This document shows positions 5,835 to 25,482 of a stretch of DNA of 44,849 bases, one piece after another. How positions within the stretch are numbered: the stretch's first letter is position 1; each line of letters opens with the position of its first letter. Both the position numbers and the translations under genes were made by a program. The notes under the pieces are model-generated. The model did not search any database and had not been told where the DNA came from. It saw nothing but the letters and a program-made list of their open reading frames with translations. The DNA lies in the NCBI GenBank assembly GCA_028712355.1, contig JAQTQH010000005.1, forward strand, positions 1-44,849, given 5' to 3'. This DNA comes from Dehalococcoidales bacterium (lineage in GTDB: Bacteria; Chloroflexota; Dehalococcoidia; Dehalococcoidales; RBG-16-60-22).

Positions 5835-6658
5835 CTGGAAACTGTTTTGGCCGGTTGGGGCTTCATCAGACCCAGTTCCTTGAGCAGGCCATCACAAATT
5901 CGCTCAATCGTGCGGAGCGGCGGGCGGCGGTGGAACGAGGTGTAAATAGGTGTGATGGAAATATTGCCATGTGTTACCGCCCACACGTCGGTGTCTTCCG
6001 CAACGGCATTGTTGGTCATCTGGCGCACCAGGCAATAGTACTTTCCCCTGCCGTCATTTCCTTCTTCAACGGTATTGATGTGGCTGCGGTGAGCAAGGCG
6101 GGTTATCAGCGCGCCGCGCATTTCCGTCTGAGGACGGTCCGGAATATTAACATTGAGAAAGAGGTTGGGTTCTGCCGGCGCTTCCACAATACCTTTCGCG
6201 ATCAGTGCCGCGATTCTAGCCGCGGACACCGGTCCTTGCCCGTTGCGGAATTCCATCGAGACCGCCAGGGCGGGAAAACCGCGCAGATAACCCTGCAAAG
6301 CAGCGCCGACGGTTCCGGAGATATGGGTATCTTCTCCCAAATTTAAGTCCTGATTGATACCGGAAACCACCAGATCGATTTTACCATGCGCCAGCTTGCC
6401 CAGTGCGAGGATAACTGCATCGGAAGGAGTGCCGTCAACGGAATAGGCGATAACGCCCGGCACCTCTGGAACAACCTCGTTGACCCGCAGTGTCTGGCGC
6501 AACGTAACCGCCGTGCCGATGGCGCTCCGTTCCCCATCCGGTGCGGAGACTACCACATCGGCAATTTGTTTGAGCTCTTTGACCAGCGCCCACAGCCAGG
6601 GCGATTTGATGCCGTCATCATTGGAGACCAGTATTTGCATACGGTCTGAGTTTAACAC
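5831..6658 (-). CDS. surE: 5'/3'-nucleotidase SurE
   Basis: 275 aa. It has the N-terminal ILVSNDDGI motif and the GINxG motif (SGINQDLNLG). Confidence 0.9.
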   Translation of the reverse strand: MLNSDRMQILVSNDDGIKSPWLWALVKELKQIADVVVSAPDGERSAIGTAVTLRQTLRVNEVVPEVPGVIAYSVDGTPSDAVILALGKLAHGKIDLVVSGINQDLNLGEDTHISGTVGAALQGYLRGFPALAVSMEFRNGQGPVSAARIAALIAKGIVEAPAEPNLFLNVNIPDRPQTEMRGALITRLAHRSHINTVEEGNDGRGKYYCLVRQMTNNAVAEDTDVWAVTHGNISITPIYTSFHRRPPLRTIERICDGLLKELGLMKPQPAKTVSR

Positions 6659-6746
6659 AGGCGGCGGATTAGCGGCAAACAGTTTCTGGGTTTTAGATAC
6701 AAAGATTTGCCGCCATAAGCAGCTTTATGCTAGAATTTTTAGTAGA

Positions 6747-7289
6747 ATGAATACTTTTATTGATGAAGTCAAAGCTACTCCCGGCGGCGAGAACGTCCTC
6801 GCCTGTATACAGTGCGGTATGTGCAGCGGCAGCTGTCCAATGGCTAACCAGATGGAATATGCGCCGCGCCAGCTTATCGCCATGATACGGGCAGACCTCA
6901 AGGATGAAGTCCTTTCCTCAAACTCAATGTGGTATTGTCTTTCCTGCTACCTCTGTACGGCGCGTTGCCCCAAAGGGGTTAAACCCACAGACCTGGCGCA
7001 TGCTCTGGAAAGTCTGGCGACCCAGCAGGGCTACCGTACGAGGGGTAACAACAATCCGGAGATGTACCGTGCCTTTGTTGGCTCCATCAAGAGCAACGGG
7101 CGGGTGCACGAGTTTGGAATGATGATGAAGTATTACCTGTCTACCAACCCGTTTGCCGCTCTAAAGGTCGCTGCCGTGGGTTTACAGATGTTTATACACA
7201 GCCGGTTGCCGCTGAAAGCCACGAAAGTCAAAAACCGGGGCGATATACCCGCCATCATTAAAAAATTCAAGGAAGTGAGGAGTAAATGA
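6747..7289 (+). CDS. hdrC: Heterodisulfide reductase subunit C
   Basis: Two ferredoxin-like Cys clusters are present (CIQCGMCSGSCP, CLSCYLCTARCP). I chose the ATG at 6747 because the longer tracked ORF starting at 6480 overlaps surE. The stop overlaps the hdrB start as ATGA. Confidence 0.8.
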   Translation: MNTFIDEVKATPGGENVLACIQCGMCSGSCPMANQMEYAPRQLIAMIRADLKDEVLSSNSMWYCLSCYLCTARCPKGVKPTDLAHALESLATQQGYRTRGNNNPEMYRAFVGSIKSNGRVHEFGMMMKYYLSTNPFAALKVAAVGLQMFIHSRLPLKATKVKNRGDIPAIIKKFKEVRSK

Positions 7290-8173
7290 AATACTATACT
7301 TACTTCCCCGGTTGTTCCTCGGAAAGCACCGCCCTCGGCATGAGCATTTCCCTTGAGGCGATTGCCGGGCCGCTGGACATGAAGCTGGCGGAGATGGAAG
7401 ACTGGACCTGCTGCGGTTCGACACCGTACGGCTCGCTGGACGAAATGGAATCACTGGTGATTGCCGCGCGCAACCTGGCGCTCGCCGAAAAGATTGGGCT
7501 GGATATGGTTACGCCGTGCAGTTCCTGCTATGTCACCCTGAACAAAGCCAATCATCATCTGAAAGAGCATCCGCAACTGATGGCGCAGGTCAATGAAGCG
7601 CTGGCGGTCGCTAAAATGCAGTACAAGGGCAGCGTTAAAGTCCGCCACATCGTTGATGTCCTTTATACTGATATTAAACCTGAATCTATTGCGGCCAAAG
7701 TAAAACAAAAACTTGCCGGTTTGAAAGTAGCCGCTTACTCCGGTTGCCAGCTCGTGCGGCCCGACTACGGCTTTGACCATGTGGAATTTCCTGACAAGCT
7801 GGATGAACTGGTCAGGTGTCTCGGCGCAGAGGCGGTTAACTTCCCGCTGAAATCACGGTGCTGCGGCAGTTCTTTGAGTATATCCGAGACGGACAAAGTG
7901 CTGGGCTTGATGGAGAAACTCTTCGCCAACGCCGCTGAGAACGGTGCTCAGTGCTTCACAACCCCGTGCCCCCTTTGCCAGACTAATTTGGATGCTTACC
8001 AGAGCCTGGTCAATGCGAAATTTGGTACTCATTATAACCTGCCTGTTTTCTTCATCTCGCAATTAATCGGGGTCGCCCTTGGGATGGATGAAAAATCGCT
8101 GGGGCTGGACAAAAATATCGTTTCTCCGCGGCCGGTTTTGCGGCAGTTAAGCGAGGTTAAAAGTGGAACCTAG
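7286..8173 (+). CDS. hdrB: Heterodisulfide reductase subunit B
   Basis: 295 aa with two CCG-type Cys-rich domains (CCGS..PCSSC and CCGSS..PCPLC). Confidence 0.85.
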   Translation: MKYYTYFPGCSSESTALGMSISLEAIAGPLDMKLAEMEDWTCCGSTPYGSLDEMESLVIAARNLALAEKIGLDMVTPCSSCYVTLNKANHHLKEHPQLMAQVNEALAVAKMQYKGSVKVRHIVDVLYTDIKPESIAAKVKQKLAGLKVAAYSGCQLVRPDYGFDHVEFPDKLDELVRCLGAEAVNFPLKSRCCGSSLSISETDKVLGLMEKLFANAAENGAQCFTTPCPLCQTNLDAYQSLVNAKFGTHYNLPVFFISQLIGVALGMDEKSLGLDKNIVSPRPVLRQLSEVKSGT

Positions 8174-10160
8174 GATTGGCGTTTACGTTTGTCACTGCGG
8201 TAGTAATATTGCCGGTACGGTAGAATGTGCTGAAGTAAGTAAATACGCCCAGAGTTTGCCCGGTGTCAAAGTGGCACGCGATTATAAGTTCATGTGCTCC
8301 GACCCCGGACAGGAGATGATTAAGAAAGATATCCGCGAGATGGGATTAAACCGGGTCGTGGTCGCGTCCTGCTCACCGACGATGCATGAGCCGACCTTCC
8401 GCCGCGCCTGCCAGGACGCCGGACTGAATCCCTATTTCTTTGAGATGGCAAACATCCGCGAACACTGTTCCTGGGTTACCGAAGACCATAAAGATGCCAC
8501 TGAAAAAGCCAAAGCGCTGGTAAGCGCGGCGGCTTATCGCGTTTATTATCACCAGCCGCTGGAAAAACGCGAGGTGGAAATCAATCCCAACACCTTGATT
8601 GTGGGCGGCGGCATCGCGGGCATCCAGGCAGCGCTCAAAATTGCTGATTCCGGCCATAAAGTTTTCCTGGTCGAACGGGAGCCCAGCATCGGCGGACACA
8701 TGGCGCAGCTTGATAAGACTTTTCCCACACTTGATTGCTCCGCCTGTATTCTGACCCCCAAGATGACGCTAGTTGGCTCGCATCCTAATATTACCCTGCT
8801 CACCTACAGCGAAGTCGAGCAGGTCGGCGGCTACGTGGGCAACTTCCATGTGAAAGTCCGCAAGAAAGCGCGGTATATCGACTGGAACAAGTGCACTGGC
8901 TGCGGGCGCTGCACGGAAATATGCCCCACCAAGGTGCCCAACCTTTTCGAGGAAAAACTAGGCGAGCGACGTGCCGTTTACAAACACTTTGCCCAGGCGG
9001 TGCCCAACCGTGTTGTCATTGACGCGGAAACTTGCCGTCACATCCAGGGTCTCAAGCAGGGTAAAGACCTCTGCCGCCTCTGCCAGAAGGGTATCGAGAA
9101 GAAGGGCATCGTCGGCTGCGAGACTGGTGCTATCGATTTCAATCAGAAGGATGAGATTGTGGAGCTTGAGGTCGGCGCCATTATTGTCGCCACCGGCTTC
9201 AATTTGTTCGATGCGTCGAGGATTTACCAGTACGGCTATGGTAGATATGATAATGTACTGACTTCTCTCGAGTTTGAGCGCATGATTAACTCCGCCGGTC
9301 CCACGGGCGGGCATGTCAAACTCAAGAACGGGAATGAGCCGGAAGCTATCGCCCTCATCCATTGCGTGGGCAGCCGCGATGAAAAATACCATGCCTACTG
9401 CTCCCGTGTCTGCTGCATGTACTCCATGAAATTCGCCCACCTTCTAAAAGAGCACACCCATGCTGCGGTATATGAGTTCTATATCGATATACGCAGCTTT
9501 GGCAAGGGCTACGAAGAGTTCTATAATCGCATGCTCAACGAAGGCACTGTCTTCATCCGCGGCAAACCGGCGGAAATCACCGACGTTGCCGAAAAGCCGG
9601 AGGAAAAAGGTAAGCTGGTTGTCCAGTTTGAAGATACCCTGGCAGGTAAGCAGCGCCGCATCCCGGTAGATATGGTGATTCTGGGTTGCGGGCTGGAGCC
9701 TCAGGTAGACACCAACGATGTCGGCCGTATGTTCAATATCAGCCGCTCCGCCGATGGCTTTTTTCTGGAAAAGCATCCCAAGCTTGACCCAGTAGCTACT
9801 ATGACGGATGGCATCTTCATCGCTGGCTGCTGCCAGAGCCCCAAGGACATCCCGGATACAGTTGCCCAGGCTTCTGCCGCCGCCGCCGAAGCCCTGTCGC
9901 TTATCGACCGGGGTAAAGTAGAGGTAGAAGCGGCTACCGCAGTTATTGATGCAAAACTCTGTTCAGGATGCCGACTGTGCGAATCGGTCTGTCCTTATAC
10001 CGCCATCACTTTCGATACGGCGAAAAAGGTTTGTCAGGTTAATGCCGCGCTTTGCAAAGGCTGCGGCGCCTGCGTGGGCGGCTGTACCGCCGATGCCATC
10101 AGCCTCAACCACTACACCAACGAGCAGATTCTCGCCCAGATGGAAGGCGCTCTGGCGTAG
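8163..10160 (+). CDS. hdrA: Heterodisulfide reductase subunit A (FAD/FeS flavoprotein)
   Basis: 665 aa. It has the N-terminal IGVYVCHCGSNIAG motif, FAD fold GGGIAGIQAA, several CxxCxxCxxxCP clusters and a C-terminal 2x[4Fe-4S] domain. It uses a GTG start with GAGG 7 nt upstream. Confidence 0.9.
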   Translation: MEPRIGVYVCHCGSNIAGTVECAEVSKYAQSLPGVKVARDYKFMCSDPGQEMIKKDIREMGLNRVVVASCSPTMHEPTFRRACQDAGLNPYFFEMANIREHCSWVTEDHKDATEKAKALVSAAAYRVYYHQPLEKREVEINPNTLIVGGGIAGIQAALKIADSGHKVFLVEREPSIGGHMAQLDKTFPTLDCSACILTPKMTLVGSHPNITLLTYSEVEQVGGYVGNFHVKVRKKARYIDWNKCTGCGRCTEICPTKVPNLFEEKLGERRAVYKHFAQAVPNRVVIDAETCRHIQGLKQGKDLCRLCQKGIEKKGIVGCETGAIDFNQKDEIVELEVGAIIVATGFNLFDASRIYQYGYGRYDNVLTSLEFERMINSAGPTGGHVKLKNGNEPEAIALIHCVGSRDEKYHAYCSRVCCMYSMKFAHLLKEHTHAAVYEFYIDIRSFGKGYEEFYNRMLNEGTVFIRGKPAEITDVAEKPEEKGKLVVQFEDTLAGKQRRIPVDMVILGCGLEPQVDTNDVGRMFNISRSADGFFLEKHPKLDPVATMTDGIFIAGCCQSPKDIPDTVAQASAAAAEALSLIDRGKVEVEAATAVIDAKLCSGCRLCESVCPYTAITFDTAKKVCQVNAALCKGCGACVGGCTADAISLNHYTNEQILAQMEGALA

Positions 10161-10187: not shown

Positions 10188-10209
10188 GGAGGGGACGCCA
10201 GTCCCCTCC
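10188..10209 (+). terminator. Hairpin after hdrA
   Basis: GGAGGGGAC-GCCA-GTCCCCTCC is a 9-bp GC-rich stem. The downstream T-tract is weak. Confidence 0.4.
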
Positions 10210-10227
10210 CTTAGTATCCCCCACGTA

Positions 10228-10256
10228 TTGACTAATTTCTGAAGCAAAGATAAGAT
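10228..10256 (+). promoter_or_regulatory. Sigma70-like promoter for the Sec-glutaredoxin / reductase pair
   Basis: TTGACT - 17 nt - TAAGAT, about 30 nt upstream of the ATG at 10287. Confidence 0.4.
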
Positions 10257-10286
10257 TAGCACGAGTATATTTCACGGAGGTGTGCT

Positions 10287-10541
10287 ATGTCGGATAAGAA
10301 AGTAACCATTTACTCGACCCCGACCTGACCCTACTGCACCAAAGCGAAAGAGTATCTTTCGCAGAAGGGTATTGCCTATGAGGAATTCAATGTCGCCTCC
10401 GACCGGGCGAAAGCCAAGGAAATGATAGAAAAGACCAAGCAGATGATGGTACCTGTCATTTTTGTAGACGAGAAATTTATGGTCGGTTTCAATCCGATGA
10501 AAATCGACGAGTTGCTGGAAATAAAACCGAAGGCACAGTAA
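10287..10541 (+). CDS. Glutaredoxin-like selenoprotein (84 aa) with an in-frame TGA (10326..10328) read as selenocysteine in a UPYC redox motif
   Basis: Absent from the ORF track because of the internal TGA. GGAGG lies 6 nt upstream of the ATG. Translation: MSDKKVTIYSTPT-U-PYCTKAKEYLSQKGIAYEEFNVASDRAKAKEMIEKTKQMMVPVIFVDEKFMVGFNPMKIDELLEIKPKAQ. This is a full-length Grx/NrdH-like fold with U exactly at the first Cys of CPYC. The TAA stop overlaps the next gene's ATG (TAATG). Confidence 0.75.
10344..10362 (+). promoter_or_regulatory. Candidate bacterial SECIS hairpin
   Basis: GCGAAAGA-GUA-UCUUUCGC is an 8-bp stem starting 15 nt after the UGA, with G and U in the apical loop. A possible lower stem pairs ACC (10338-40) with GGU (10368-70). 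Confidence 0.55.
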
Positions 10542-11455
10542 TGTACGAATTGATGATAATCGGCGGGGGGCCCGCCGGGTTGTGCGCGGCGGTCTATGCC
10601 GCGCGTAAAAAGATAAATACCCTGCTCATCAGCACCGATATCGGCGGTCAGGTGAACTGGACGACCAAGATTGAAAACTATATGGGTTATCAGCTCATAG
10701 AGGGTCAGGAGTTGATTGATAAATTCCAGAAGCAGGTGATCCAGTTCCCCATCGATCAGAAAATCGGGGAAAAGGTGAATCGATTGGAATGGTCGGATGC
10801 TGGTTTTACCGCCCTCGGCGAGAGCGGGGCAAGATACCAGTCTAAGGTGGTAGTGCTGGCGACCGGTAAAAAGCCCCGTCGGTTGAATATTCCCGGTGAA
10901 ACGGAATTTACCGGCCGGGGCGTGACCTACTGTTCGATCTGTGACGGGCCGCTTTTCGCGGGACAGCGGGTGGTGGTAGTGGGAGGCGGTAATTCCGCAG
11001 CGGAAGCAGTGCTTGACATGGAGAAGATTGCCGGCCATATTGATCTCGTTTCACTCACGCCGCTCACCGCGGATCCGATACTCGTAGAACGAATGTCTGC
11101 CATGAAGAATCTGACCATCCATATTGAATATCGGTCGGAGAAGATTGAAGGCAAAGATTTCGCCGAGGCACTCGTTATTAAAAAATTGAAAGATAATACT
11201 GAAAAAAGGCTTGAGGCTGCTGGTGTCTTTATCGAAATAGGGGTTGAACCTAACTCTGATATGGTACGCGCCTTACTCAATCTCAACCGTTTCAACGAGG
11301 TGCCCGTCAGCTGTTTCTGTGAGACGACGGTGCCCGGGCTCTACGCCGCCGGAGATGTGACGGATGTGCCGGATAAACAGATTATCATCGCCGCCGGCGA
11401 AGGTGCTAAAGCTGCTTTGCAGGCGCACCGCTATCTCCAGAGGATGGACAAGTAA
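10541..11455 (+). CDS. Thioredoxin-reductase-like FAD/NAD(P)H disulfide oxidoreductase
   Basis: 304 aa. FAD motif is IIGGGPAGLCAAVYAA, the redox-active motif is CSICDG (the TrxR CxxC position), and the NAD(P)H motif is VVGGGNSAAEA. The C-terminal pattern is AAGDVTD. Confidence 0.85.
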   Translation: MYELMIIGGGPAGLCAAVYAARKKINTLLISTDIGGQVNWTTKIENYMGYQLIEGQELIDKFQKQVIQFPIDQKIGEKVNRLEWSDAGFTALGESGARYQSKVVVLATGKKPRRLNIPGETEFTGRGVTYCSICDGPLFAGQRVVVVGGGNSAAEAVLDMEKIAGHIDLVSLTPLTADPILVERMSAMKNLTIHIEYRSEKIEGKDFAEALVIKKLKDNTEKRLEAAGVFIEIGVEPNSDMVRALLNLNRFNEVPVSCFCETTVPGLYAAGDVTDVPDKQIIIAAGEGAKAALQAHRYLQRMDK

Positions 11456-11480: not shown

Positions 11481-11999
11481 ATGGAAGATATTCATAAACT
11501 GATTGTGCAGATTATCGAAGAGCATAAAGCCGTTTTTGCCAAGATGAAGAACATGGAAGCAGTTGCCAATGATTATCAGGCAATCACCGGATTAGAAGCA
11601 TCCAAAGAATCATTCATGCCCGGCCGTCCCGACCAGAGGCAAGGACTGGAAGCGCTGCAGACAATGCTGGAAACTGTCAATACCGGACTGGGGGAGCATT
11701 TTAAGCGTGAGGAAACCGCCTTGCTGGCAGCTTTCGAAAAGTACGGCGACCGTGAACTGGCGACTTCATTGCACTCCCTGCTCCTTGAACATGAAGATTT
11801 AAAGGGTCGATTGGCTCTTTCCAAAAATCAGGTTGGTGAGCTTCTCGGCAGCGACCTGTCGCAGCATATCTGGGAATCTAAAGCGCACGATATGCGTGCT
11901 CACCTGAGCCATACGAGGAAATTGCTGGAAATACATGCTGCGATTGAACAGGAGCTTCTCAAAAAACTGGAGGCTATCATCAAAGCGAAAGAGAATTAG
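11481..11999 (+). CDS. Hemerythrin-like (HHE cation-binding) domain protein
   Basis: 172 aa, all-helical. Repeated H/E metal-ligand-like spacing is visible (EEH.., HFKREE, HSLLLEHED, HAAIEQE). The assignment rests on motif pattern only. Confidence 0.4.
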   Translation: MEDIHKLIVQIIEEHKAVFAKMKNMEAVANDYQAITGLEASKESFMPGRPDQRQGLEALQTMLETVNTGLGEHFKREETALLAAFEKYGDRELATSLHSLLLEHEDLKGRLALSKNQVGELLGSDLSQHIWESKAHDMRAHLSHTRKLLEIHAAIEQELLKKLEAIIKAKEN

Positions 12000-13049: not shown

Positions 13050-13466
13050 CTAAAAGTGTACTTCCATCGCATGGGGCGGGCAGGCTTTAATACACAGCCC
13101 GCAGGCGACACACTTCTCATTATCGAAGATGACTTTCCGGCTGCCCGGTTCGATACAGAAGGCATTCGCCGGGCAGATGGTGACGCAGGCGCCGCACTGG
13201 GTGCAGCGATCTTCGTTGCGGATGATGTCCTGGCTCAATGATTGTATTTTGACGCCCGTCTTGACCAGGAAATTGATGCCCTTATCGTAGTCTTCCTGAG
13301 TGCCGGTAAGTTCGATGACCATCAAACCTTCCTGCTCCGGACCGATAGATGCTTTGAGGATATTAAACTCCAGGGCGTAGTCACGCGCCAGGTGCCAGAT
13401 GATGGGGCGGTCGATAGTCCGCCGGGGGAAATGTAGAACGATTCTCTTTGAAACAGCAGCCATCAT
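13050..13466 (-). CDS. NIL-domain / 2x[4Fe-4S] ferredoxin protein (MA1822-type)
   Basis: 138 aa. An N-terminal NIL-like domain is followed by CTQCGACVTICP and CVACGLCIKACP. Confidence 0.8.
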   Translation of the reverse strand: MMAAVSKRIVLHFPRRTIDRPIIWHLARDYALEFNILKASIGPEQEGLMVIELTGTQEDYDKGINFLVKTGVKIQSLSQDIIRNEDRCTQCGACVTICPANAFCIEPGSRKVIFDNEKCVACGLCIKACPPHAMEVHF

Positions 13467-13476
13467 CTCAACCTCC

Positions 13477-14685
13477 TCAATACTCCACCGGGCGTTCGTT
13501 GAGCGGTTTGAAGGTCACCTCGGAATCTACTCCCGGCAGCGGTGCCACCGATTCGGTCAGCAGGAAATCGCCTTTTTGGATCCATCCTTTAAGTATACCG
13601 GAGATTTCCACCGCCCGCGAGTAACTGGAAAGGGAGGCCGTGGGGACATTTTTTCCCTGTACTTTGATTGTGCCGCTTTTCAATTCGGCATAGCTGACTT
13701 CTCCCAGGATATCCGGTTTCATCTTGGGGTAGGCATCTGAATAATCGACCACCGCCGCGAATATCTCGCCATCGGTCGCAGCAGCGTGGCGTAAAACTTC
13801 CTCATCGAGAACGGGGATAGGTACGCCGATTCCCACACCGAGGCTGCAGCCATAGCCGAGCATGCTTGTGCCGACCAGCCAGTGCGGACTCATCTGTTTG
13901 AGGTCGCCGATGACTGCTAAGGTACCGGCGCCTCGCTTGGGTACACCGTTATCGCCGCGTAGTACATCCGGGTTATGCTGGGTGCCGTGCCAGGCAACAT
14001 AGCCGATGCCGCCGCCGAGGAAAATGCGGGTACCAATGCCGATAGTCCGGTAATAGGGGTCTTTTAAAAGCGGCGAAAGCTGTCCTGCCGAACTATAGGT
14101 AGCATTGCCCAGTCTCGGTTTGAGCATTCCCATGTAGGTATAAATCAGCTTATCCGAGAGGTTCACCGCGACATTATAGTTCTGATAGGCATTTCTGATG
14201 TTGAGCAGGGTTGCCTGGTTGAGGTCTTTAATATTAACCCAGGTATCCAGCTTCTTGCGCGGGTAACAATCGGTGCCGTAAGCCGTCGCCGAAAGCCTGA
14301 CGTCTTTGCCCGCTACCAGTTCTTCGATGACGTGACCGCCGCCGTAGTTGAACTCGCCGGGGCGAATACGGTTGCGGGGATCATCATCGGGCAGGGCGTT
14401 CGACCCGATAAAAAGATCGGCCGCTGCAAAACCGGGGTAAGCGAGCACGTCATTCAGGTAAGCCTTACCGCCACCCAGTTTAAGGCGCGGTTTGGTATGA
14501 CCGATATTCAGATAGGCACCGGAGGAACACATTACGCCGAAGGTGCCGGTAGTTACCACATCAACTTCTTGCGCAGCGCGGGTAATGCCTTTCGTCCGCG
14601 CGATATCTATTATTTCTTCCGCCGTCACGACGACGGCTTTACCTTCTTTTATCCTTTTATTAATTTCTGCAATTGTTTTAGCCAT
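13477..14685 (-). CDS. COG1900 / DUF39 homocysteine biosynthesis protein (MA1821-type, without CBS domains)
   Basis: 402 aa. The N-terminus KTIAEINKRIKEGKAVVVTAEE..VDVVTTGTFG is characteristic of DUF39. It sits immediately upstream of the NIL-ferredoxin gene. Confidence 0.75.
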   Translation of the reverse strand: MAKTIAEINKRIKEGKAVVVTAEEIIDIARTKGITRAAQEVDVVTTGTFGVMCSSGAYLNIGHTKPRLKLGGGKAYLNDVLAYPGFAAADLFIGSNALPDDDPRNRIRPGEFNYGGGHVIEELVAGKDVRLSATAYGTDCYPRKKLDTWVNIKDLNQATLLNIRNAYQNYNVAVNLSDKLIYTYMGMLKPRLGNATYSSAGQLSPLLKDPYYRTIGIGTRIFLGGGIGYVAWHGTQHNPDVLRGDNGVPKRGAGTLAVIGDLKQMSPHWLVGTSMLGYGCSLGVGIGVPIPVLDEEVLRHAAATDGEIFAAVVDYSDAYPKMKPDILGEVSYAELKSGTIKVQGKNVPTASLSSYSRAVEISGILKGWIQKGDFLLTESVAPLPGVDSEVTFKPLNERPVEY

Positions 14686-14883: not shown

Positions 14884-17244
14884 ATGGATAAGAAAAGTCT
14901 GGAAGTCTTGGAGTTTCCCAAGGTAAAAGAAATCCTGGCGGAATTCACCTCTTTTTCTGCCAGCCGGGAGCTTGCCCTCGAGCTTCAACCGTTGACCAGT
15001 TACGAGACGGTGGTGCGGCTTCTGAGGCAATCTGCAGAGGCGCGGCTGCTGCTGGAGCTTGAGCCGGGATTCACCATCGGTGGTGTCTTCGATATTCGCC
15101 CGCTGGCAGCGATGGCGGCGCGGGAAAAGATACTTGAGACGCTTGACCTGCTTCAGGTACAGCAAGTACTGATTGCGAGCCGGCACCTGCGCGGTAATCT
15201 CGCCAGAGTTGCTTCGGATTTTCCCATGCTGTGGGAGATTGCGCAGGGCATTACAGAACTCGGGCAGATTGAGCGCAACATCAGTCACTGCATCGGGCTT
15301 ACCGGTGAGGTGCTCGATACCGCTTCGCCGCAACTGGCAACCGTACGCCGCAAACTCAATGACATGAAACAGCAGCTCATGGAACGTCTGGAGGCGTTCA
15401 TGGGTTCAGCAAAAGGGCAGAAGGTAGTCCAGGAAGCCATCATTACCGAAAGGGAAGGACGATATGTTATCCCGGTCAAAGTGGAAGCCCGCCGTGAGGT
15501 TAAGGGTATCGTCCACGACGTCTCCAATACCGGTGCTACCGTCTTTGTGGAGCCGTGGGCGACTGTCGAACTGGGCAATACACTGCGTGAGCTTTCCCGT
15601 GAAGAGCAGCGGGAAATAGAGCGCATCCTGGGCAGTCTTTCCGGCGAAATCGGCGAGCATGAGGGAGAAATCGTACAGAGCATCACACGTATTGCGGAAC
15701 TGGACCTGGCGCTGGCGAAAGCACGCTACGCCCGGCGCTTCCGCGCCAGTGAACCTAAAGTTACCGAATTTGATGGTAATACCTCCGGCGGGATTATACG
15801 GCTGGCGGAGGCAAGGCATCCGCTCCTTGCCGATAAAGCGGTGCCGCTTTCAGTGGAAATCGGGAGGGAATTTTCGGCGCTGATTATCACCGGACCTAAT
15901 ACCGGCGGCAAGACGGTGGCTTTAAAAACGGTGGGGTTGCTCAGTTTGATGGTGCAGTCCGGCTTGCCTATTCCAGCGCTGCCGGAAAGCCAAATGCCCG
16001 TTTTCGATGGCATTTTCGCAGACATCGGTGACGAGCAAAGTATTGAGCAGACTCTATCCACGTTCAGCTGGCACATGAACAACATTGCCCGCATTATTAA
16101 TCATGCCTCGCGGAAAAGCCTGGTGCTTCTCGACGAATTAGGTACGAGCACCGACCCCGCTGAGGGCTCCGCACTGGCACGCTCACTGCTGATGTATTTC
16201 CTCGCGCGCGGGGCATTGATAGTCGCCACTACCCACTTCAGCGACCTCAAGGCTTTTGCCCATACGACCAGAGGGATGCAAAATGCCTCACTGGACTTTG
16301 ACCCGGTTACGCTGGCGCCGACTTACCATTTGGTGCTCGGCATCCCCGGCGGCAGCAATGCCCTGGCAACGGCGGCGCGGCTGGGTCTGCCTGCCGAGAT
16401 TATTGATAATGCCCGCAGCATGCTGGCGAAAGGTACCCAGGAATTTGAAACCCTGCTTGCCGACCTGATAACGGAGAAGCATAAGATGGAGGATTTGAGT
16501 GCAACTCTGGCGCAGGAAAAGGCCGAAATAGAAAAGCGCCTTAGCGAACTGGAAAATGAATTCAAGCGGGTCAAATCGGAGGAAAGGCGCATCGTTCTGG
16601 AGACCCGCGACCGCGTCGTAAGTGAAGCCGCCGAACTGCATAAAGCGCTGCACGACGCGGAAGCCGATTTGCGTAAAGAAAAGTCACGTGAGAGGGTTGC
16701 TGAAACGCGCAAGGTGCTGGCGGCAATCCAGAAGCAATTGCAGGGAACAACCTGGAAACCAGCTCCCGGCGAAGAGATGGCGGAAGAAGCTGCCGCCCGA
16801 ATCGATGTCGGTAATACGGTCTGGGTTAAAGAAGCTGGTATTCATGGCACCGTCCTCGCGGTCAATGAAGATAAGCGGCAGGTGGAAGTGCAAATCGGGG
16901 CGGCGAAAATACGACTCGGACTGGACGGCGTGGAAAAAACGGCACCGCCAGAGGCCAAGATGTCTCCGCATTATACCGTTATCCAGCGACCGTCCGGCAG
17001 GATAGTCGCCCGTGAACTCGACCTGCGCGGCAAGCGGGCGGAAGCGATTGAGATGGAACTGGATACCTATTTGAACGATGCCGCCGTCGCCGGTTTGGGT
17101 GAGGTGCGCATCGTGCATGGCTACGGCACCGGCGCCGCCCGTAAGACTGTCCGCGAGCGGCTGGCGGGGCATCAACTGGTCAAGTCATTCCGCCCCGGGG
17201 AACGTGGCGAGGGCGGTGACGGCGTTACGGTGGTCAGATTATAG
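14884..17244 (+). CDS. mutS2: Endonuclease MutS2 (MutS ATPase core plus C-terminal Smr domain)
   Basis: 786 aa. Walker A is GPNTGGKT and the DELGTSTDP motif is present. A long coiled coil follows, then the C-terminal Smr domain (LDLRGKRAEEA..VRIVHGYGTG). Confidence 0.93.
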   Translation: MDKKSLEVLEFPKVKEILAEFTSFSASRELALELQPLTSYETVVRLLRQSAEARLLLELEPGFTIGGVFDIRPLAAMAAREKILETLDLLQVQQVLIASRHLRGNLARVASDFPMLWEIAQGITELGQIERNISHCIGLTGEVLDTASPQLATVRRKLNDMKQQLMERLEAFMGSAKGQKVVQEAIITEREGRYVIPVKVEARREVKGIVHDVSNTGATVFVEPWATVELGNTLRELSREEQREIERILGSLSGEIGEHEGEIVQSITRIAELDLALAKARYARRFRASEPKVTEFDGNTSGGIIRLAEARHPLLADKAVPLSVEIGREFSALIITGPNTGGKTVALKTVGLLSLMVQSGLPIPALPESQMPVFDGIFADIGDEQSIEQTLSTFSWHMNNIARIINHASRKSLVLLDELGTSTDPAEGSALARSLLMYFLARGALIVATTHFSDLKAFAHTTRGMQNASLDFDPVTLAPTYHLVLGIPGGSNALATAARLGLPAEIIDNARSMLAKGTQEFETLLADLITEKHKMEDLSATLAQEKAEIEKRLSELENEFKRVKSEERRIVLETRDRVVSEAAELHKALHDAEADLRKEKSRERVAETRKVLAAIQKQLQGTTWKPAPGEEMAEEAAARIDVGNTVWVKEAGIHGTVLAVNEDKRQVEVQIGAAKIRLGLDGVEKTAPPEAKMSPHYTVIQRPSGRIVARELDLRGKRAEAIEMELDTYLNDAAVAGLGEVRIVHGYGTGAARKTVRERLAGHQLVKSFRPGERGEGGDGVTVVRL

Positions 17245-17263: not shown

Positions 17264-18007
17264 ATGCTTGTAGCGAGAGATTTTGCCTTGACCCGCCATA
17301 AGATGCTGGCATACCTCGCGGCGTTGGCCGCGGATGACTCTTTTACAGCAACGCGCTACGTTCCCGCCGGAGCATTACTGCCGGGAATCAGAAAAATACT
17401 TGAGGACGCACCGGAACTCCTGTTGCCGGAAATATCAGAGCGAGTAATTGGTTCATTTAACGGCGCAGCGCTTTTCTGGGGTAACAGCAGGACATGCCTC
17501 GTCCTGCCGCCCTTTCCGATTGATAAAGCCGAATCTTCAAAAGGCTGCAATATTGCATCGCTGAACGTTCAACTAACCAGAGATTACAATATCGGTATAG
17601 TGCTTATCCGGCTGGGGGCTTACGCCATCGGACTCTGCCGCGGCGAAAACATTGTGAAAAGCAAAGTGGGGACGGGGCTGGTGCACGCCCGGCACCGTCA
17701 GGGCGGCTCTTCTTCTCACCGGTTTGAGCGCCACCGCAAGAAACAAATCGAATATTTCCTGACGAGGGTCTGCGAACACGTCAGGGAGATACTGGAATCG
17801 GAGGCAAAGACTATCGATTATTTTGTCTTCGGTGGTTCTAGCACGGCAATCCAGTTTTTGCAGGAACAATGTTCGTTTCTGGGGCAGTTTGAGAAACGCA
17901 GTCTGCTGCCTTTATTGACATTGCCGGAGCCACGGCAGGCGGTACTCGCCGAAGCCGTTGCGCGAGTCTGGTCGAGCCGGGTCATTGAATGGCGAACGGA
18001 AAACTAG
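17264..18007 (+). CDS. Vms1/VLRF1-like (eRF1-fold) putative peptidyl-tRNA hydrolase
   Basis: 247 aa, starting 20 nt after the mutS2 stop. The central segment IGIVLIRLGAYAIGLCRG..VHARHRQGGSSSHRFERHRKKQIEYF resembles the Vms1/ANKZF1 VLRF1 core (HRYTxRxKQGGSQS..RY). I recognised it from memory of that motif only. Confidence 0.45.
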   Translation: MLVARDFALTRHKMLAYLAALAADDSFTATRYVPAGALLPGIRKILEDAPELLLPEISERVIGSFNGAALFWGNSRTCLVLPPFPIDKAESSKGCNIASLNVQLTRDYNIGIVLIRLGAYAIGLCRGENIVKSKVGTGLVHARHRQGGSSSHRFERHRKKQIEYFLTRVCEHVREILESEAKTIDYFVFGGSSTAIQFLQEQCSFLGQFEKRSLLPLLTLPEPRQAVLAEAVARVWSSRVIEWRTEN

Positions 18008-21276: not shown

Positions 21277-22455
21277 TTACGAGAGCAGGGAAGGAATATC
21301 TTTAGAGGCGTCTTCAATGACCTTGAGCTTGGTGGCGGTATCTTCCTGGCGCTTCCTCAACTCCGGGATAAGACTGGTAGATTTGGTGAAGTAGTTCCTG
21401 ACCTTTTCGACATCACTTAACTCGGACATGATTACGGTCACATCAACCGAACCCTTTTCGCGGGGGTAATCGCCGTTGCGGATGACGGCTTCCGGCGTCA
21501 CATCACGCATATAATCGCCGAGTTCCTTGACCATATCCATGTTCAACTCTTTGGCCGGACCGGAGACAAGGTACATCGCCCGGCGGGAATCCGCTGGATT
21601 GCACTTTAGGGAAAGTTCGCTCAGGGCTTCGTCCATTGCCTGGATACCCCTCTGGATTTCTGTGCCTTTCTTGCGGAAATCGCCTCCGGAAGTGGCAGGC
21701 AAACGGAAAAGCGGCACTTCAGAGCGTCCGTGACCTATTGCCGTCCAGCCGACGAGCGTCTGGATGATATCACCCGCATCCAGCAGCTTGGCGCCGATGT
21801 GTTTGGCTTTCTTTTCCTCACCGGCGCAGAGCAGGTTATAGAACGGTTCCACAATCAGGGAGTTTATTTTTGACAGGTTGAATTTGAGTGAAGAATCTTT
21901 ACGGACATAGCGCTGGTTGTCAAACAGGAAGACAGCATCGGCTACGGAATAGCAGGATTTAAGGCAGGTAGCCACGTTGTAGGCGGTCCGCTCTTCGGTG
22001 GTTTCTTCATGTTCAAAAGGCAGGACGATAAGATCATAGACCGGTTTGTCAATATAGCGTTGCTTCAATGCCTGGGTGATAACAGCAATTGCTCCGGAGC
22101 CCGTGCCGCCCGCCGCACTTGCCGCCAGCAGGAAGGCATCCGCCTCGAACAGTTTCTTGGCGGTTCGGATGGCATCTACCACTTTATCGCTGTCTTCTTT
22201 GGCGACCTCAGCGCCTACTTCGTTGATTTTACCCACGCCATGACCGCCAGTCTTTCTGCCGCCGATGAGGATTCGGTTACGGTAACTCTTGGGGATGACG
22301 GAGAGCCCGCTTAAATCAGCGGCATCGGTATTAACAGCAAAAGCTCCCATTATGATTTCCATGCCACGTCGGCTGTGGGCTCGATCGTTTAAACGGGCGA
22401 ATTCATCGACAATTCTGCCGCCGCATTGCCCCAGACCAACAACAACTAATTTCAT
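21277..22455 (-). CDS. Tubulin/FtsZ-superfamily GTPase, CetZ/tubulin-like (paralogue A)
   Basis: 392 aa. The T1 loop GLGQCGGRI is the tubulin/CetZ GQxGG type, not the FtsZ GGGGxN type. The T4 signature is AAGGTGSG and the T7-like segment is LLDAGDIIQTL. The C-terminal tail ends KDIPSLLS. Confidence 0.85.
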   Translation of the reverse strand: MKLVVVGLGQCGGRIVDEFARLNDRAHSRRGMEIIMGAFAVNTDAADLSGLSVIPKSYRNRILIGGRKTGGHGVGKINEVGAEVAKEDSDKVVDAIRTAKKLFEADAFLLAASAAGGTGSGAIAVITQALKQRYIDKPVYDLIVLPFEHEETTEERTAYNVATCLKSCYSVADAVFLFDNQRYVRKDSSLKFNLSKINSLIVEPFYNLLCAGEEKKAKHIGAKLLDAGDIIQTLVGWTAIGHGRSEVPLFRLPATSGGDFRKKGTEIQRGIQAMDEALSELSLKCNPADSRRAMYLVSGPAKELNMDMVKELGDYMRDVTPEAVIRNGDYPREKGSVDVTVIMSELSDVEKVRNYFTKSTSLIPELRKRQEDTATKLKVIEDASKDIPSLLS

Positions 22456-24966: not shown

Positions 24967-25482
24967 GTGCCGAGTACATCAAAAGAACATGCCAAGAAAA
25001 GCGCCCCGGCGGAAGGGAAAGCAGCGCAGGCGATTGAAGAGCTCAAGGGACTGGCTGCTGGAGTTGAAGAACCCGCTTCCAATCCATTAGATGAAGTCCT
25101 GGGACAGGCGGAGCGGGCATATGCCGCTTACATGGAAGCGGAACGACAGGTCGCCCGGGCTTACCGCGAAAATGAACTGCGAGTTACCGGTGCTTATGGT
25201 AAAACCGAGCAGCAACTTCAGAAAGATTACGAGAAGGCGATAACCCAAGCATTGCAAGCGCGGAACGAAGCAATCGAGCAGGCAATGCGCAATCGAGAGG
25301 ACACCATCCAGCATGCGGAATCCGATTTCAGGATTGCCCGAGAAGAGGCGGAAAAGGCTTATGAGACGGCAACGTCAGAAGCCATAATGTCGCGCCAGGA
25401 AGGCATTGAGAAAGCCCAGAAATCCCGCGATGATACTATTGCGCAGGCATGGGCGATTTATTCCAAGATGATGTCGCGGTAA
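24967..25482 (+). CDS. Small helical protein (171 aa), hypothetical
   Basis: GTG start directly after AGGAGGTAAGGA. The sequence is predicted helical and E/A/R/Q-rich, with an internal duplication (EKAITQALQARNEAIEQA.. / EKAYETATSEAIMSRQEGIEKA..). Confidence 0.6.
   Translation: MPSTSKEHAKKSAPAEGKAAQAIEELKGLAAGVEEPASNPLDEVLGQAERAYAAYMEAERQVARAYRENELRVTGAYGKTEQQLQKDYEKAITQALQARNEAIEQAMRNREDTIQHAESDFRIAREEAEKAYETATSEAIMSRQEGIEKAQKSRDDTIAQAWAIYSKMMSR

What the first reader, a model, noticed from the sequence alone, without database searches (positions are those of the whole stretch)
10287..10541. Hidden selenoprotein: glutaredoxin-like gene with a UPYC active site, missed by ORF calling
The 255-nt frame starts at the ATG at 10287 (GGAGG 6 nt upstream). 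It reads through a single TGA at 10326-10328 and gives a complete 84-aa Grx/NrdH-like protein. The TGA falls exactly at the first Cys of the CPYC redox motif (..VTIYSTPT-U-PYCTKAKEYL..). A stem-loop GCGAAAGA-GUA-UCUUUCGC begins 15 nt downstream of the UGA and has GU in the apical loop, the geometry expected for a bacterial SECIS. The stop overlaps the start of a thioredoxin-reductase-like gene (TAATG). This implies a dedicated reductase/Sec-Grx couple, similar in design to the clostridial and Thermotoga TrxR-like/Grx-like pairs. Sec-containing Grx-like proteins are a known but rarely annotated selenoprotein family. The gene also shows that the organism decodes UGA as Sec.
Basis: partly seen in the sequence, partly recalled or inferred. 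Interest (0 to 1): 0.72.

Follow-up and report, generated by a model that had tools for sequence, protein, structure and literature searches.

The report
Selenocysteine glutaredoxin-like gene with its reductase
A small redox protein gene that gene finders miss because its catalytic residue is selenocysteine, encoded by a TGA "stop" codon; it looks real, but it belongs to a selenoprotein family that is already known.

Summary
Window 10287-10541 is an 84-codon glutaredoxin-like gene (YruB/Cp9 type). Its only in-frame TGA (10326-10328) aligns with the first Cys of CPYC in all full-length homologues. Fourteen distinct genes gathered by protein homology carry TGA at this codon. In those genes the six codons forming the downstream hairpin barely vary at synonymous sites (heterozygosity 0.06 against 0.50 elsewhere). 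Cys-form relatives lack the hairpin (mean -1.75 against -8.7 kcal/mol). The hairpin meets all four published bacterial SECIS criteria: GUA loop, 8-bp stem, 23 nt from the UGA, -10.1 kcal/mol. Both sides of the TGA are under purifying selection. TGA ends 8 of 40 window genes, so the genetic code is standard. An AhpF-C-terminal/TrxR-like reductase follows directly in both TGA and Cys forms. At least 120 metagenome contigs carry the same TGA-plus-hairpin signature. The gap is that no sel genes or tRNA-Sec lie in the window and the source genome could not be retrieved. A related Dehalococcoidales MAG does encode selD and selA. Grx (UxxC) is an experimentally verified selenoprotein family, and Dehalococcoidia are known to be selenoprotein-rich. 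This is a new member of a known kind.

The parts
10228..10256 (+). Promoter-like site TTGACT-17 nt-TAAGAT, 31 nt upstream of the ATG. It suggests a transcription unit separate from the upstream hdrCBA-like genes.
   Evidence: Consensus scan, 9 of 12 matches. This is a consensus match only, not shown to function.
10276..10280 (+). Shine-Dalgarno GGAGG, 6 nt before the start codon.
   Evidence: Read directly from the sequence. An SD plus ATG at about 13 codons upstream of the TGA also occurs in the other TGA-form loci.
10287..10541 (+). Sec-containing glutaredoxin-like gene (YruB/Cp9 type): 84 codons, active site U-P-Y-C.
   Evidence: With U replaced by C: PF00462 75.6 bits (cutoff 22.9) and TIGR02196 98.4 bits (cutoff 88.55). 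Closest solved structure is 7c10, E = 3e-16, full length, with CPHC aligned to UPYC. Against the closest TGA-form relative, pN is about 0.10 and pS 0.69-0.91 on both sides of the TGA.
10326..10328 (+). In-frame TGA, read as the selenocysteine codon (residue 14), at the position of the N-terminal nucleophilic Cys of CxxC.
   Evidence: Aligned to Cys in 66 Cys-form genes and to TGA in 13 other homology-selected genes.
10344..10362 (+). SECIS upper stem-loop: 8-bp stem and GUA apical loop. It lies in the codons for A-K-E-Y-L-S-Q (helix alpha-1).
   Evidence: Energy is -10.1 kcal/mol, and the loop lies 23 nt after the UGA. All four bSECIS criteria of PMC13188914 are met. Synonymous sites are nearly frozen in the 14 TGA forms: GAG 14/14, CTT 14/14, TCG 13/14.
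10328..10370 (+). Predicted extended lower stem (ACCCU.ACUGC / GCAG.AAGGGU) enclosing the upper hairpin.
   Evidence: MFE fold of 10320-10385. The lower stem is not consistently predicted in the other TGA forms, so it is weakly supported.
10541..11455 (+). Partner flavoprotein disulfide reductase: 304 aa, one CxxC (CSIC, residues 131-134), GGGNSA dinucleotide motif. Its start overlaps the grx stop (TAATG).
   Evidence: PF07992 129 bits. TIGR03140 AhpF and TIGR01292 TrxR both score below their cutoffs. The best solved match is the AhpF C-terminal fragment 1fl2, 230 bits. It lies directly downstream of both TGA-form and Cys-form grx genes in relatives.
11481..11999 (+). 172-aa ORF 26 nt downstream of the reductase, weakly hemerythrin-like. 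It may be a third member of the operon.
   Evidence: PF01814 E = 2.3e-4, below cutoff. Homologues lie 4-5 kb from the grx gene in L005, L009, L012 and L021. Membership is inferred from spacing only.

Best explanation
This is a real selenoprotein gene. The mRNA encodes an 84-residue Trx-fold, glutaredoxin-like redoxin of the YruB/Cp9 type, and the N-terminal nucleophile of its CxxC motif is selenocysteine (U-P-Y-C).

Proposed mechanism: the UGA at 10326-10328 is recoded by SelB carrying Sec-tRNA(Sec). SelB is recruited by a SECIS hairpin 15-34 nt downstream (8-bp stem, GUA loop) that lies inside the codons for helix alpha-1 (AKEYLSQ).

The gene is translationally coupled (TAATG) to a low-molecular-weight flavoprotein disulfide reductase that resembles the C-terminal half of AhpF. 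The inferred electron path is NAD(P)H, then FAD and the CSIC disulfide of the reductase, then the selenenylsulfide of the redoxin, then a protein disulfide or sulfenate substrate such as a peroxiredoxin or a methionine sulfoxide reductase. It would be a glutathione-independent, 'split AhpF'-like system.

Shown here: the frame, U/C correspondence, conservation of the TGA, RNA-level constraint on the hairpin, purifying selection on both sides of the TGA, the conserved gene pair, and standard use of TGA as a stop elsewhere.

Inferred: actual Sec insertion in this organism, the electron donor, and the physiological substrate.
For: 1. Family: PF00462 and TIGR02196 both pass their cutoffs with U replaced by C.
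2. U/C correspondence: every full-length homologue has C-P-[YWH]-C at this position.
3. Conservation of the TGA: four truncated database gene calls all have an upstream in-frame TGA, SD and ATG. In a set gathered by a C-terminal peptide pattern, and so blind to the hairpin, 14 distinct genes have TGA and 66 have TGY.
4. RNA constraint: codons +6 to +11 are GCG AAA GAG TAT CTT TCG with synonymous heterozygosity 0.06, against 0.50 at 18 other conserved codons (p = 2e-4). Cys forms encoding the same KEYLS peptide use other codons, and in L005 the loop G is lost (GAA). Inner hairpin energy averages -8.7 (TGA forms) against -1.75 kcal/mol (Cys forms), p = 1e-8.
5. The hairpin meets every bSECIS criterion in PMC13188914 Fig. 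2.
6. Window against L001: pN about 0.10 and pS 0.69-0.91 both upstream and downstream of the TGA. pS is only 0.23 in the hairpin codons.
7. TGA terminates 8 of 40 window genes.
8. At least 120 metagenome contigs carry the signature, and 103 have a complete Grx frame.
9. Sec use in the lineage: L016 (a Dehalococcoidales MAG) has selD, with its own TGA, and selA, both above cutoff. L038 has a second candidate selenoprotein (HesB/IscA-like) next to its TGA-form grx. BSepDB lists Dehalococcoidia MAGs with 46-49 selenoproteins.
10. The reductase is directly downstream in both TGA and Cys forms.
Against: - No selA, selB or selD gene and no tRNA-Sec lie in the 44.8-kb window. The source genome could not be found in the contig index. 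Sec machinery is therefore shown only for a relative whose Grx is 56% identical.
- No other TGA-interrupted gene was seen in the window. The window's HdrA, a family that is often a selenoprotein, is a Cys form.
- The fold of the window sequence alone is only marginally unusual (z = -1.89).
- No Rfam family matches.
- The statistical tests treat related sequences as independent.
- The reductase scores below the AhpF and TrxR equivalog cutoffs. It lacks an obvious HRRxxxR NADPH motif, by my own reading of the sequence, so the electron donor is uncertain.
- No peroxiredoxin is adjacent.
Confidence: 0.88

Rival explanations
1. Decayed or silenced copy. The organism, or its recent ancestor, lost the Sec machinery. 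The TGA now acts as a stop, and the locus is a pseudogene yielding only a 13-residue peptide.
For: No Sec machinery or second selenoprotein gene is seen in the window. Sec and Cys forms switch frequently among close relatives, so the trait is labile.
Against: The frame is intact, with SD, ATG and no other stop or frameshift. The 8-bp hairpin is perfect. Against the closest relative, synonymous sites are near saturation while pN is about 0.10 on both sides of the TGA. A pseudogene would not keep that pattern. The coupled downstream reductase is intact.
Confidence: 0.06
2. UGA is read through without selenocysteine, for example by near-cognate Cys or Trp insertion or by a reassigned code.
For: The position is Cys in most homologues. 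Cys insertion would give a functional protein.
Against: TGA is an ordinary stop for 8 of 40 genes in the window. The strictly conserved stem-loop with G-U in the apical loop, at canonical spacing, is the SelB recruitment signal and has no role in simple readthrough. Relatives in the order have selD and selA.
Confidence: 0.03
3. Sequencing or assembly error: the true codon is TGC or TGT.
For: A single base separates TGA from TGC or TGT.
Against: The same TGA occurs in 13 other homology-selected genes and in at least 120 independent metagenome contigs. It always co-occurs with the hairpin, which Cys forms lack.
Confidence: 0.02

Closest known systems
Selenoprotein glutaredoxin (Grx, PF00462, UxxC). 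Listed as experimentally verified in PMC13188914 Table 1 (ref. 85: Kim et al. 2011, Clostridium sp. OhILAs / Alkaliphilus oremlandii). Also reported in Geobacter sulfurreducens, Moorella thermoacetica and Sargasso Sea sequences (PMC1794560, PMC1088965).
   Same: Same Pfam domain. Sec at the same position, the first residue of UxxC at the N-terminus of helix alpha-1. A bSECIS immediately downstream within the coding region.
   Different: This clade is Dehalococcoidia/Chloroflexota, of the short YruB/Cp9 type, and is paired with an AhpF-C-like reductase. The characterised clostridial enzyme is described as GSH-linked and as reducing selenoprotein MsrA (review text). I did not compare sequences with those proteins directly, apart from PDB Grx hits 4tr0 and 4tr1 at about 49 and 45 bits.
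Clostridium pasteurianum Cp34 / Cp9 / Cp20 system: NADH-dependent TrxR-like reductase, Grx-like redoxin, peroxiredoxin (as described in PMC3720550).
   Same: A small Grx-like redoxin with a C-P-[YW]-C-type motif and the N-terminal [IV]-x-[ILV]-[YF]-[ST] motif (VTIYS here). It is encoded next to a dedicated low-Mr TrxR/AhpF-like reductase. It is inferred to work without glutathione.
   Different: Here the nucleophile is Sec. The gene order is redoxin then reductase, whereas Cp9 lies between reductase and Prx. No peroxiredoxin is adjacent; a weakly hemerythrin-like ORF follows instead. Donor specificity is untested.
AhpF: N-terminal redox-active Trx-fold domain fused to a TrxR-like C-terminal half. 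[quoted passage not shown]
   Same: The reductase's best solved match is the AhpF C-terminal fragment (1fl2, 230 bits), ahead of true TrxRs. A separate small CxxC/UxxC redoxin would play the role of the AhpF N-terminal domain.
   Different: There are two separate polypeptides. The reductase scores 300.5 bits against a cutoff of 502.9 for TIGR03140, so it is not an AhpF equivalog. The redoxin scores only 27.9 bits on TIGR02187.
UXX-star glutaredoxin-like (seleno)protein family (NF041212 and NF041114 / NF041211 / NF047338).
   Same: The window protein passes the NF041212 subfamily cutoff (70.6 against 66). NCBI names a Cys-form homologue (P0005) this way.
   Different: The feature the family is named for, a C-terminal U-x-x-stop, is absent. 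The gene ends ...KPKAQ-TAA. The match covers profile positions 1-65 of 70 only. The specific UXX-star families 1-3 all score below their cutoffs.
NrdH-redoxin
   Same: Small Trx-fold CxxC redoxin reduced by a TrxR-type enzyme.
   Different: TIGR02194 scores 49.4 bits against a cutoff of 85.75. The motif is CPYC-type rather than C-[VMI]-Q-C (PMC3720550). There are no nrdI/E/F neighbours.

Membership tests
Bacterial selenoprotein gene (Sec-UGA + bSECIS) | In-frame UGA aligned with Cys (or Sec) in homologues | tested here: met
   66 Cys-form and 13 other TGA-form homologues align at this codon.
Bacterial selenoprotein gene (Sec-UGA + bSECIS) | Coding conservation on both sides of the UGA | tested here: met
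   Window against L001: pN about 0.10 and pS 0.69-0.91 both upstream and downstream. The IYSTPT block is conserved, with synonymous variation, across the 14 TGA forms.
Bacterial selenoprotein gene (Sec-UGA + bSECIS) | bSECIS model: 3-9 nt apical loop, 4-16 bp upper stem, G in the first two loop positions, 16-37 nt from UGA to loop, MFE <= -7.5 kcal/mol (PMC13188914 Fig. 2) | tested here: met
   GUA loop, 8 bp stem, 23 nt spacing, -10.1 kcal/mol. With the closing A-U pair the loop reads A-G-U-A-U, which fits the stated N1-G-[G|U]-N-N2 pattern. The element is frozen at synonymous sites.
Bacterial selenoprotein gene (Sec-UGA + bSECIS) | selA, selB, selD and tRNA-Sec present in the same genome | not testable with these tools
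   None are in the window. The source genome is not retrievable. A related Dehalococcoidales MAG (L016) has selD and selA. selB and selC were not seen in any fetched DNA.
Bacterial selenoprotein gene (Sec-UGA + bSECIS) | Selenium actually incorporated into the protein | not testable with these tools
   This needs 75Se labelling or mass spectrometry.
Glutaredoxin domain (PF00462) / YruB-family Grx-like (TIGR02196) | Profile score above the curated cutoff | tested here: met
   PF00462 scores 75.6 against 22.9. TIGR02196 scores 98.4 against 88.55, covering model positions 1-74 of 74.
Cp9-type redoxin / Cp34 reductase couple | C-P-[YW]-C-type active site and N-terminal [IV]-x-[ILV]-[YF]-[ST] motif (PMC3720550) | tested here: met
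   U-P-Y-C and V-T-I-Y-S.
Cp9-type redoxin / Cp34 reductase couple | Adjacent dedicated TrxR-like reductase | tested here: met
   TAATG overlap in the window. The reductase is directly downstream in 8 TGA-form loci (including the L003/L004 duplicate and a partial hit in L014) and 7 Cys-form genome loci, and in 16 of 91 metagenomic loci.
Cp9-type redoxin / Cp34 reductase couple | Adjacent peroxiredoxin substrate gene (cp20) | tested here: not met
   The next gene is a weakly hemerythrin-like ORF. The only AhpC/TSA-family gene in the window is 31 kb away, next to a DsbD-type membrane protein.
Cp9-type redoxin / Cp34 reductase couple | NADH-dependent electron transfer from reductase to redoxin to Prx | not testable with these tools
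   This is a biochemical assay.
UXX-star Grx-like (seleno)protein (NF041212) | Profile score above cutoff | tested here: met
   70.6 bits against 66, profile positions 1-65 of 70.
UXX-star Grx-like (seleno)protein (NF041212) | C-terminal U-x-x-stop | tested here: not met
   The gene ends ...IKPKAQ followed by TAA.
NrdH-redoxin | Profile score above cutoff and nrdHIEF context | tested here: not met
   TIGR02194 scores 49.4 against 85.75. No RNR genes are nearby.
Thioredoxin reductase (TIGR01292) / AhpF (TIGR03140), for the partner gene | Equivalog score above cutoff | tested here: not met
   289.2 against 343.45 for TrxR and 300.5 against 502.9 for AhpF. It is a relative of both and an equivalog of neither.

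The most novel reading that the evidence does not exclude
One ancient SECIS core (GAAR-GAG-UWU-CUUUC), embedded in the helix alpha-1 codons K-E-[YF]-L-S, is shared by several Grx-like architectures: about 78 aa, about 86 aa, Grx-PDZ fusions and Grx-zinc-ribbon fusions. In Dehalococcoidia it defines a dedicated, glutathione-independent 'split AhpF' system. Its AhpF-C-like reductase is adapted to reduce a selenenylsulfide, and lineages toggle repeatedly between Sec and Cys forms.
Probability: 0.3. Interest if true: 0.45.

Novelty: new member of a known kind. Interest (0 to 1): 0.3.

Why it matters
In practice, this is an annotation gap. Among the 106 proteins returned by the search of the 5.8-billion-protein collection, no TGA form of this gene appears at full length. 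They appear only as 46-60-residue fragments lacking the active site, or not at all. Yet at least 120 metagenome contigs carry the gene. The frozen 15-nt SECIS core gives a simple, specific search key for recovering these genes.

Biologically, it adds a Sec-dependent redoxin and reductase pair to the thiol redox system of Dehalococcoidia. The closely interleaved Sec and Cys forms, with a natural loop G-to-A variant in a Cys form, offer a clean comparative system for studying Sec/Cys exchange and SECIS decay.

It does not change what is known about selenoprotein families or about Sec decoding.

Tried and rejected
- Rfam at gathering thresholds over the whole window, and at E <= 10 over 10250-10450, gave only noise hits to a BMV pseudoknot, a miRNA and a snoRNA. 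The reviews state that bacterial SECIS elements share no sequence family, so this is uninformative rather than negative.
- ARAGORN found no tRNA in the window, none in the TGA-form loci apart from one tRNA-Lys in L045, and no tRNA-Sec among 134 tRNAs in 1.78 Mb of fetched DNA.
- Exact-protein look-ups of the window's reductase and enolase found no source contig.
- A scan of the window for other ORFs interrupted by a single TGA gave only off-frame noise.
- tblastn with E. coli SelB as I recalled it hit only the N-terminal GTPase region, all in Cys-form loci that are mostly CPR/Patescibacteria MAGs. I read these as generic translational GTPases such as EF-Tu, without verifying them. No SelB was identified.
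- The recalled SelD query was used only as a lead. The L016 hit was then verified with NCBIfam.
- The two halves of the L038 HesB-like ORF gave no Pfam hit on their own. The joined protein hits IscA_HesB_Se but below its cutoff (48.7 against 85), so it remains a candidate.
- Kim et al. 2011 (PMC3062254) is not held. It is cited only through the review.
- The extended lower stem predicted for the window is not reproduced in most other TGA forms, so I do not rely on it.
- The metagenome hits were selected by the hairpin pattern itself. I use them for prevalence and frame integrity only, not as evidence that the hairpin is conserved.

Full report
**1. The observation**

- GGAGG lies at 10276-10280, and the ATG at 10287.
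- There is a single in-frame TGA at 10326-10328.
- The translation is MSDKKVTIYSTPT-*-PYCTKAKEYLSQKG...IKPKAQ.
- The TAA at 10539-10541 overlaps the ATG (10541) of a 304-aa flavoprotein disulfide reductase gene.
- The hairpin is GCGAAAGA-GUA-UCUUUCGC at 10344-10362. It begins 15 nt after the UGA.

A mechanical ORF list shows nothing at this position. Taken alone, the fold of 10320-10385 is only modestly unusual (-16.8 kcal/mol, z = -1.89, 9 of 200 shuffles as good). The case therefore has to rest on comparison with other sequences.

**2. What the protein is**

With Cys in place of the TGA, the 84-residue product matches Pfam Glutaredoxin (75.6 bits, cutoff 22.9). It also matches the NCBIfam YruB-family glutaredoxin-like model TIGR02196 end to end (98.4 bits, cutoff 88.55). 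NrdH, Grx3 and mycoredoxin models score below their cutoffs.

The closest solved structure is the glutaredoxin 7c10 (E = 3e-16, residues 4-79). Its CPHC aligns with the window's U-PYC.

A search of 5.8 billion proteins returned 106 homologues, and those that carry a source name are mostly Dehalococcoidia. Nearly all full-length ones have C-P-[YWF]-C at the aligned position. Two, P0035 and P0106, have Tyr in place of the second Cys.

**3. Is the TGA conserved?**

Four short database proteins (46-60 aa) begin just after the motif. The DNA upstream of each shows an in-frame TGA at the same codon (UPYC, UPWC, UPHC), preceded by a conserved N-terminus, an ATG and a Shine-Dalgarno sequence.

A scan of species-representative genomes was seeded on a C-terminal peptide ([ST][KGR]QM[GMT]VPVI), so it was blind to the hairpin. 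It returned 80 loci. Together with the earlier loci and the window, that gives 14 distinct genes with TGA and 66 with TGY at this codon. The TGA forms whose record titles give a taxon come from Dehalococcoidales or other Chloroflexota MAGs.

**4. Is the hairpin a SECIS or a by-product of the peptide?**

The hairpin encodes A-K-E-Y-L-S, a conserved stretch of helix alpha-1. The control that matters is therefore codon usage.
- In the 14 TGA forms the six codons are GCG (11 of 11 Ala), AAA (12) or AAG (2), GAG (14/14), TAT (12) or TTT (2), CTT (14/14) and TCG (13/14).
- Other equally conserved residues vary freely. Tyr -5 is TAC 8 / TAT 6. Thr -3 uses three codons, Val +22 uses four, and Glu +31 is GAG 8 / GAA 6.
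- Mean synonymous heterozygosity is 0.06 in the hairpin codons and 0.50 at 18 other conserved codons (one-sided Mann-Whitney p = 2e-4).
- Cys forms that encode the same KEYLS peptide use other codons. In L005, GAA replaces GAG, which removes the apical-loop G.
- Inner hairpin energy averages -8.7 kcal/mol in TGA forms and -1.75 in Cys forms (p = 1e-8). These tests ignore phylogenetic relatedness, but the effect is large.

The published consensus model for bacterial SECIS elements has four criteria (PMC13188914, Fig. 2 legend):
- an apical loop of 3-9 nt
- an upper stem of 4-16 bp
- a G in the first two loop positions, usually followed by G or U
- 16-37 nt between the UGA and the loop, and an MFE of -7.5 kcal/mol or lower

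The window element has a GUA loop, an 8-bp stem, 23 nt of spacing and -10.1 kcal/mol, so it meets all four. Rfam gave no SECIS match. This is uninformative, because no Rfam family fits this element.

**5. Is the gene alive?**

The window gene and its closest relative (L001) are 83% identical in protein and 78% in DNA. Between them, synonymous sites are near saturation (pS 0.91 upstream of the TGA, 0.69 downstream), while pN is about 0.10 on both sides. The 13 codons before the TGA are therefore under the same protein-level selection as the 70 after it. That only makes sense if ribosomes read through. In the hairpin codons pS falls to 0.23.

TGA terminates 8 of the 40 genes I delimited in the window, so the genetic code is standard.

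**6. Sec machinery**

This is the weak point.
- The window has no tRNA, no sel gene and no other TGA-interrupted gene.
- Its proteins are not in the contig index, so the rest of the genome could not be reached.

Evidence at the level of the lineage is good.
- L016, a Dehalococcoidales MAG with a Cys-form member of this Grx family, carries selD (TIGR00476, 383 bits against 125). That selD has its own in-frame TGA at the catalytic position (...GAG-U-ASK...).
- Next to it, L016 carries a divergently oriented selA (TIGR00474, 546 bits against 268).
- L038 has a HesB/IscA-like ORF with ...GFG-U-GGP... immediately after its TGA-form grx. Its best NCBIfam match is IscA_HesB_Se, but below cutoff.
- BSepDB lists Dehalococcoidia MAGs with 46-49 selenoproteins (PMC13326102).

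**7. The partner and the likely mechanism**

The overlapping downstream gene is a Pyr_redox_2 flavoprotein with one CxxC (CSIC, residues 131-134). It scores below the equivalog cutoffs for both TrxR and AhpF. Its best solved match is the C-terminal TrxR-like fragment of AhpF (1fl2, 230 bits), ahead of the true TrxRs.

A 60-76% identical reductase starts 215-260 nt after the active-site codon in eight TGA-form loci. These include a duplicate contig pair (L003/L004) and a partial 88-aa hit in L014. The same holds in seven Dehalococcoidia-type Cys-form loci. It is also directly downstream in 16 of 91 metagenomic TGA-form loci, nearly all of the ~78-aa class. The pair is therefore a conserved unit whether the redoxin has Sec or Cys.

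This matches the logic of the Clostridium pasteurianum Cp34/Cp9/Cp20 system. There, a Grx-like redoxin carries electrons from an NADH-dependent TrxR-like enzyme to a peroxiredoxin. Cp9-type proteins share the C-P-[YW]-C and [IV]-x-[ILV]-[YF]-[ST] motifs seen here (PMC3720550).

I infer this electron path: NAD(P)H, then FAD and CSIC, then the U-P-Y-C selenenylsulfide, then a protein substrate. The donor and the substrate are not established, and no peroxiredoxin is adjacent. The next ORF (11481-11999) is only weakly hemerythrin-like.

A promoter-like TTGACT-17-TAAGAT at 10228-10256 lies between the upstream hdrCBA-like genes and the grx gene. That suggests a separate transcription unit.

**8. 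Prevalence**

Of these, 103 have a complete Grx-like frame with a start about 13 codons upstream.

They include forms of about 78 aa, 86 aa, 112 aa (weak zinc-ribbon matches in the tail, below Pfam cutoffs) and 170 aa (Grx-PDZ fusion). These hits were selected by the hairpin itself. They show prevalence and frame integrity, not independent conservation of the hairpin.

Sec and Cys forms interleave by similarity; for example, L012 (TGA) is 82% identical to L005 (Cys). Exchange between the two is therefore recurrent.

**9. Comparison with what is known, and verdict**

Glutaredoxin with UxxC has been a recognised bacterial selenoprotein family since 2005-2006 (PMC1088965, PMC1794560). It is listed as experimentally verified in a 2026 review (PMC13188914, Table 1).

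The window protein also passes the NCBIfam 'Uxx-star' subfamily cutoff (70.6 against 66). However, it lacks the C-terminal U-x-x-stop that names that family.

The finding is a correct and well-supported identification of a selenoprotein gene that gene callers miss. It is a new member of a known kind, in a lineage already known to be rich in selenoproteins. Confidence that it is a functional Sec gene is 0.88. Interest is 0.3.

Noticed in passing
window 21277-22455 (-) and 25584-26759 (-), flanking 22682-24841 (+) and 24967-25482 (+): Two paralogous tubulin/FtsZ-superfamily genes with a CetZ C-terminal domain (PF00091 + PF21011) bracket a 719-aa ORF and a 171-aa ORF that have no Pfam match. As far as I know CetZ is an archaeal cell-shape tubulin, so a pair of them in what looks like a Chloroflexota genome is unusual.
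   Followed up: no
window 14884-17244 (+) and 17264-18007 (+): MutS2/Smr is followed 20 nt later by an Actinobacteria/Chloroflexi VLRF1-type release-factor-like gene (PF18859). This could be a ribosome-rescue gene pair.
   Followed up: no
window 6480-10160 (+): An hdrC-like, hdrB-like (CCG domains) and hdrA2-like cluster lies immediately upstream. The HdrA here has no in-frame TGA, so it is a Cys form, although HdrA (CxxU) is a listed selenoprotein family.
   Followed up: partly
window 10189-10212 (+): A GC-rich inverted repeat (GGAGGGGAC-GCCA-GTCCCCTCC) lies between the hdrA stop and the promoter-like site. It has no T-tract, and the scan did not call it a terminator on the + strand.
   Followed up: no
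L038 10294-10584 (+), TGA at 10390-10392: A candidate HesB/IscA-like selenoprotein (...YVNGFG-U-GGPRLG...) lies immediately downstream of that locus's TGA-form grx, in place of the reductase. Its best NCBIfam hit is IscA_HesB_Se at 48.7 bits, below the cutoff of 85.
   Followed up: partly
L016 3368-4417 (-) and 4528-5907 (+): In a Dehalococcoidales MAG, selD (itself with a Sec codon...GAG-U-ASK...) and selA form a divergent pair. They sit next to a CopA-type P-type ATPase and about 3 kb from a Cys-form Grx of this family.
   Followed up: yes
L098, L100, L107, L117, L130, L138, L148, L151 (about 170-aa class); L097, L165 (about 112-aa class): Metagenomic TGA-form Grx domains that carry the same SECIS core are fused to a C-terminal PDZ domain (L098). 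L097 has a Cys-rich tail whose zinc-ribbon matches fall below the Pfam cutoffs. A separate ~85-aa group has U-P-[GD]-C motifs.
   Followed up: partly
L005 10040-10100 (+): A Cys-form gene 82% identical to a TGA form keeps most of the hairpin stem (GAAGGA/UCUUUC), but the loop G is changed to A (GAG to GAA). It looks like a recent Sec-to-Cys conversion with a decaying SECIS.
   Followed up: partly
L111, end of the Grx ORF: The ORF ends ...NDIS-TGA-ATT-TCC-TGA, which is a possible U-I-S-stop ('UXX-star') C-terminus in addition to the N-terminal UxxC.
   Followed up: no
window 13050-14685 (-): A homocysteine-biosynthesis sulfur-incorporation gene (PF01837 HcyBio, 494 bits) lies next to a NIL-domain ferredoxin, 1.5 kb downstream of the grx-reductase unit on the opposite strand.
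   Followed up: no
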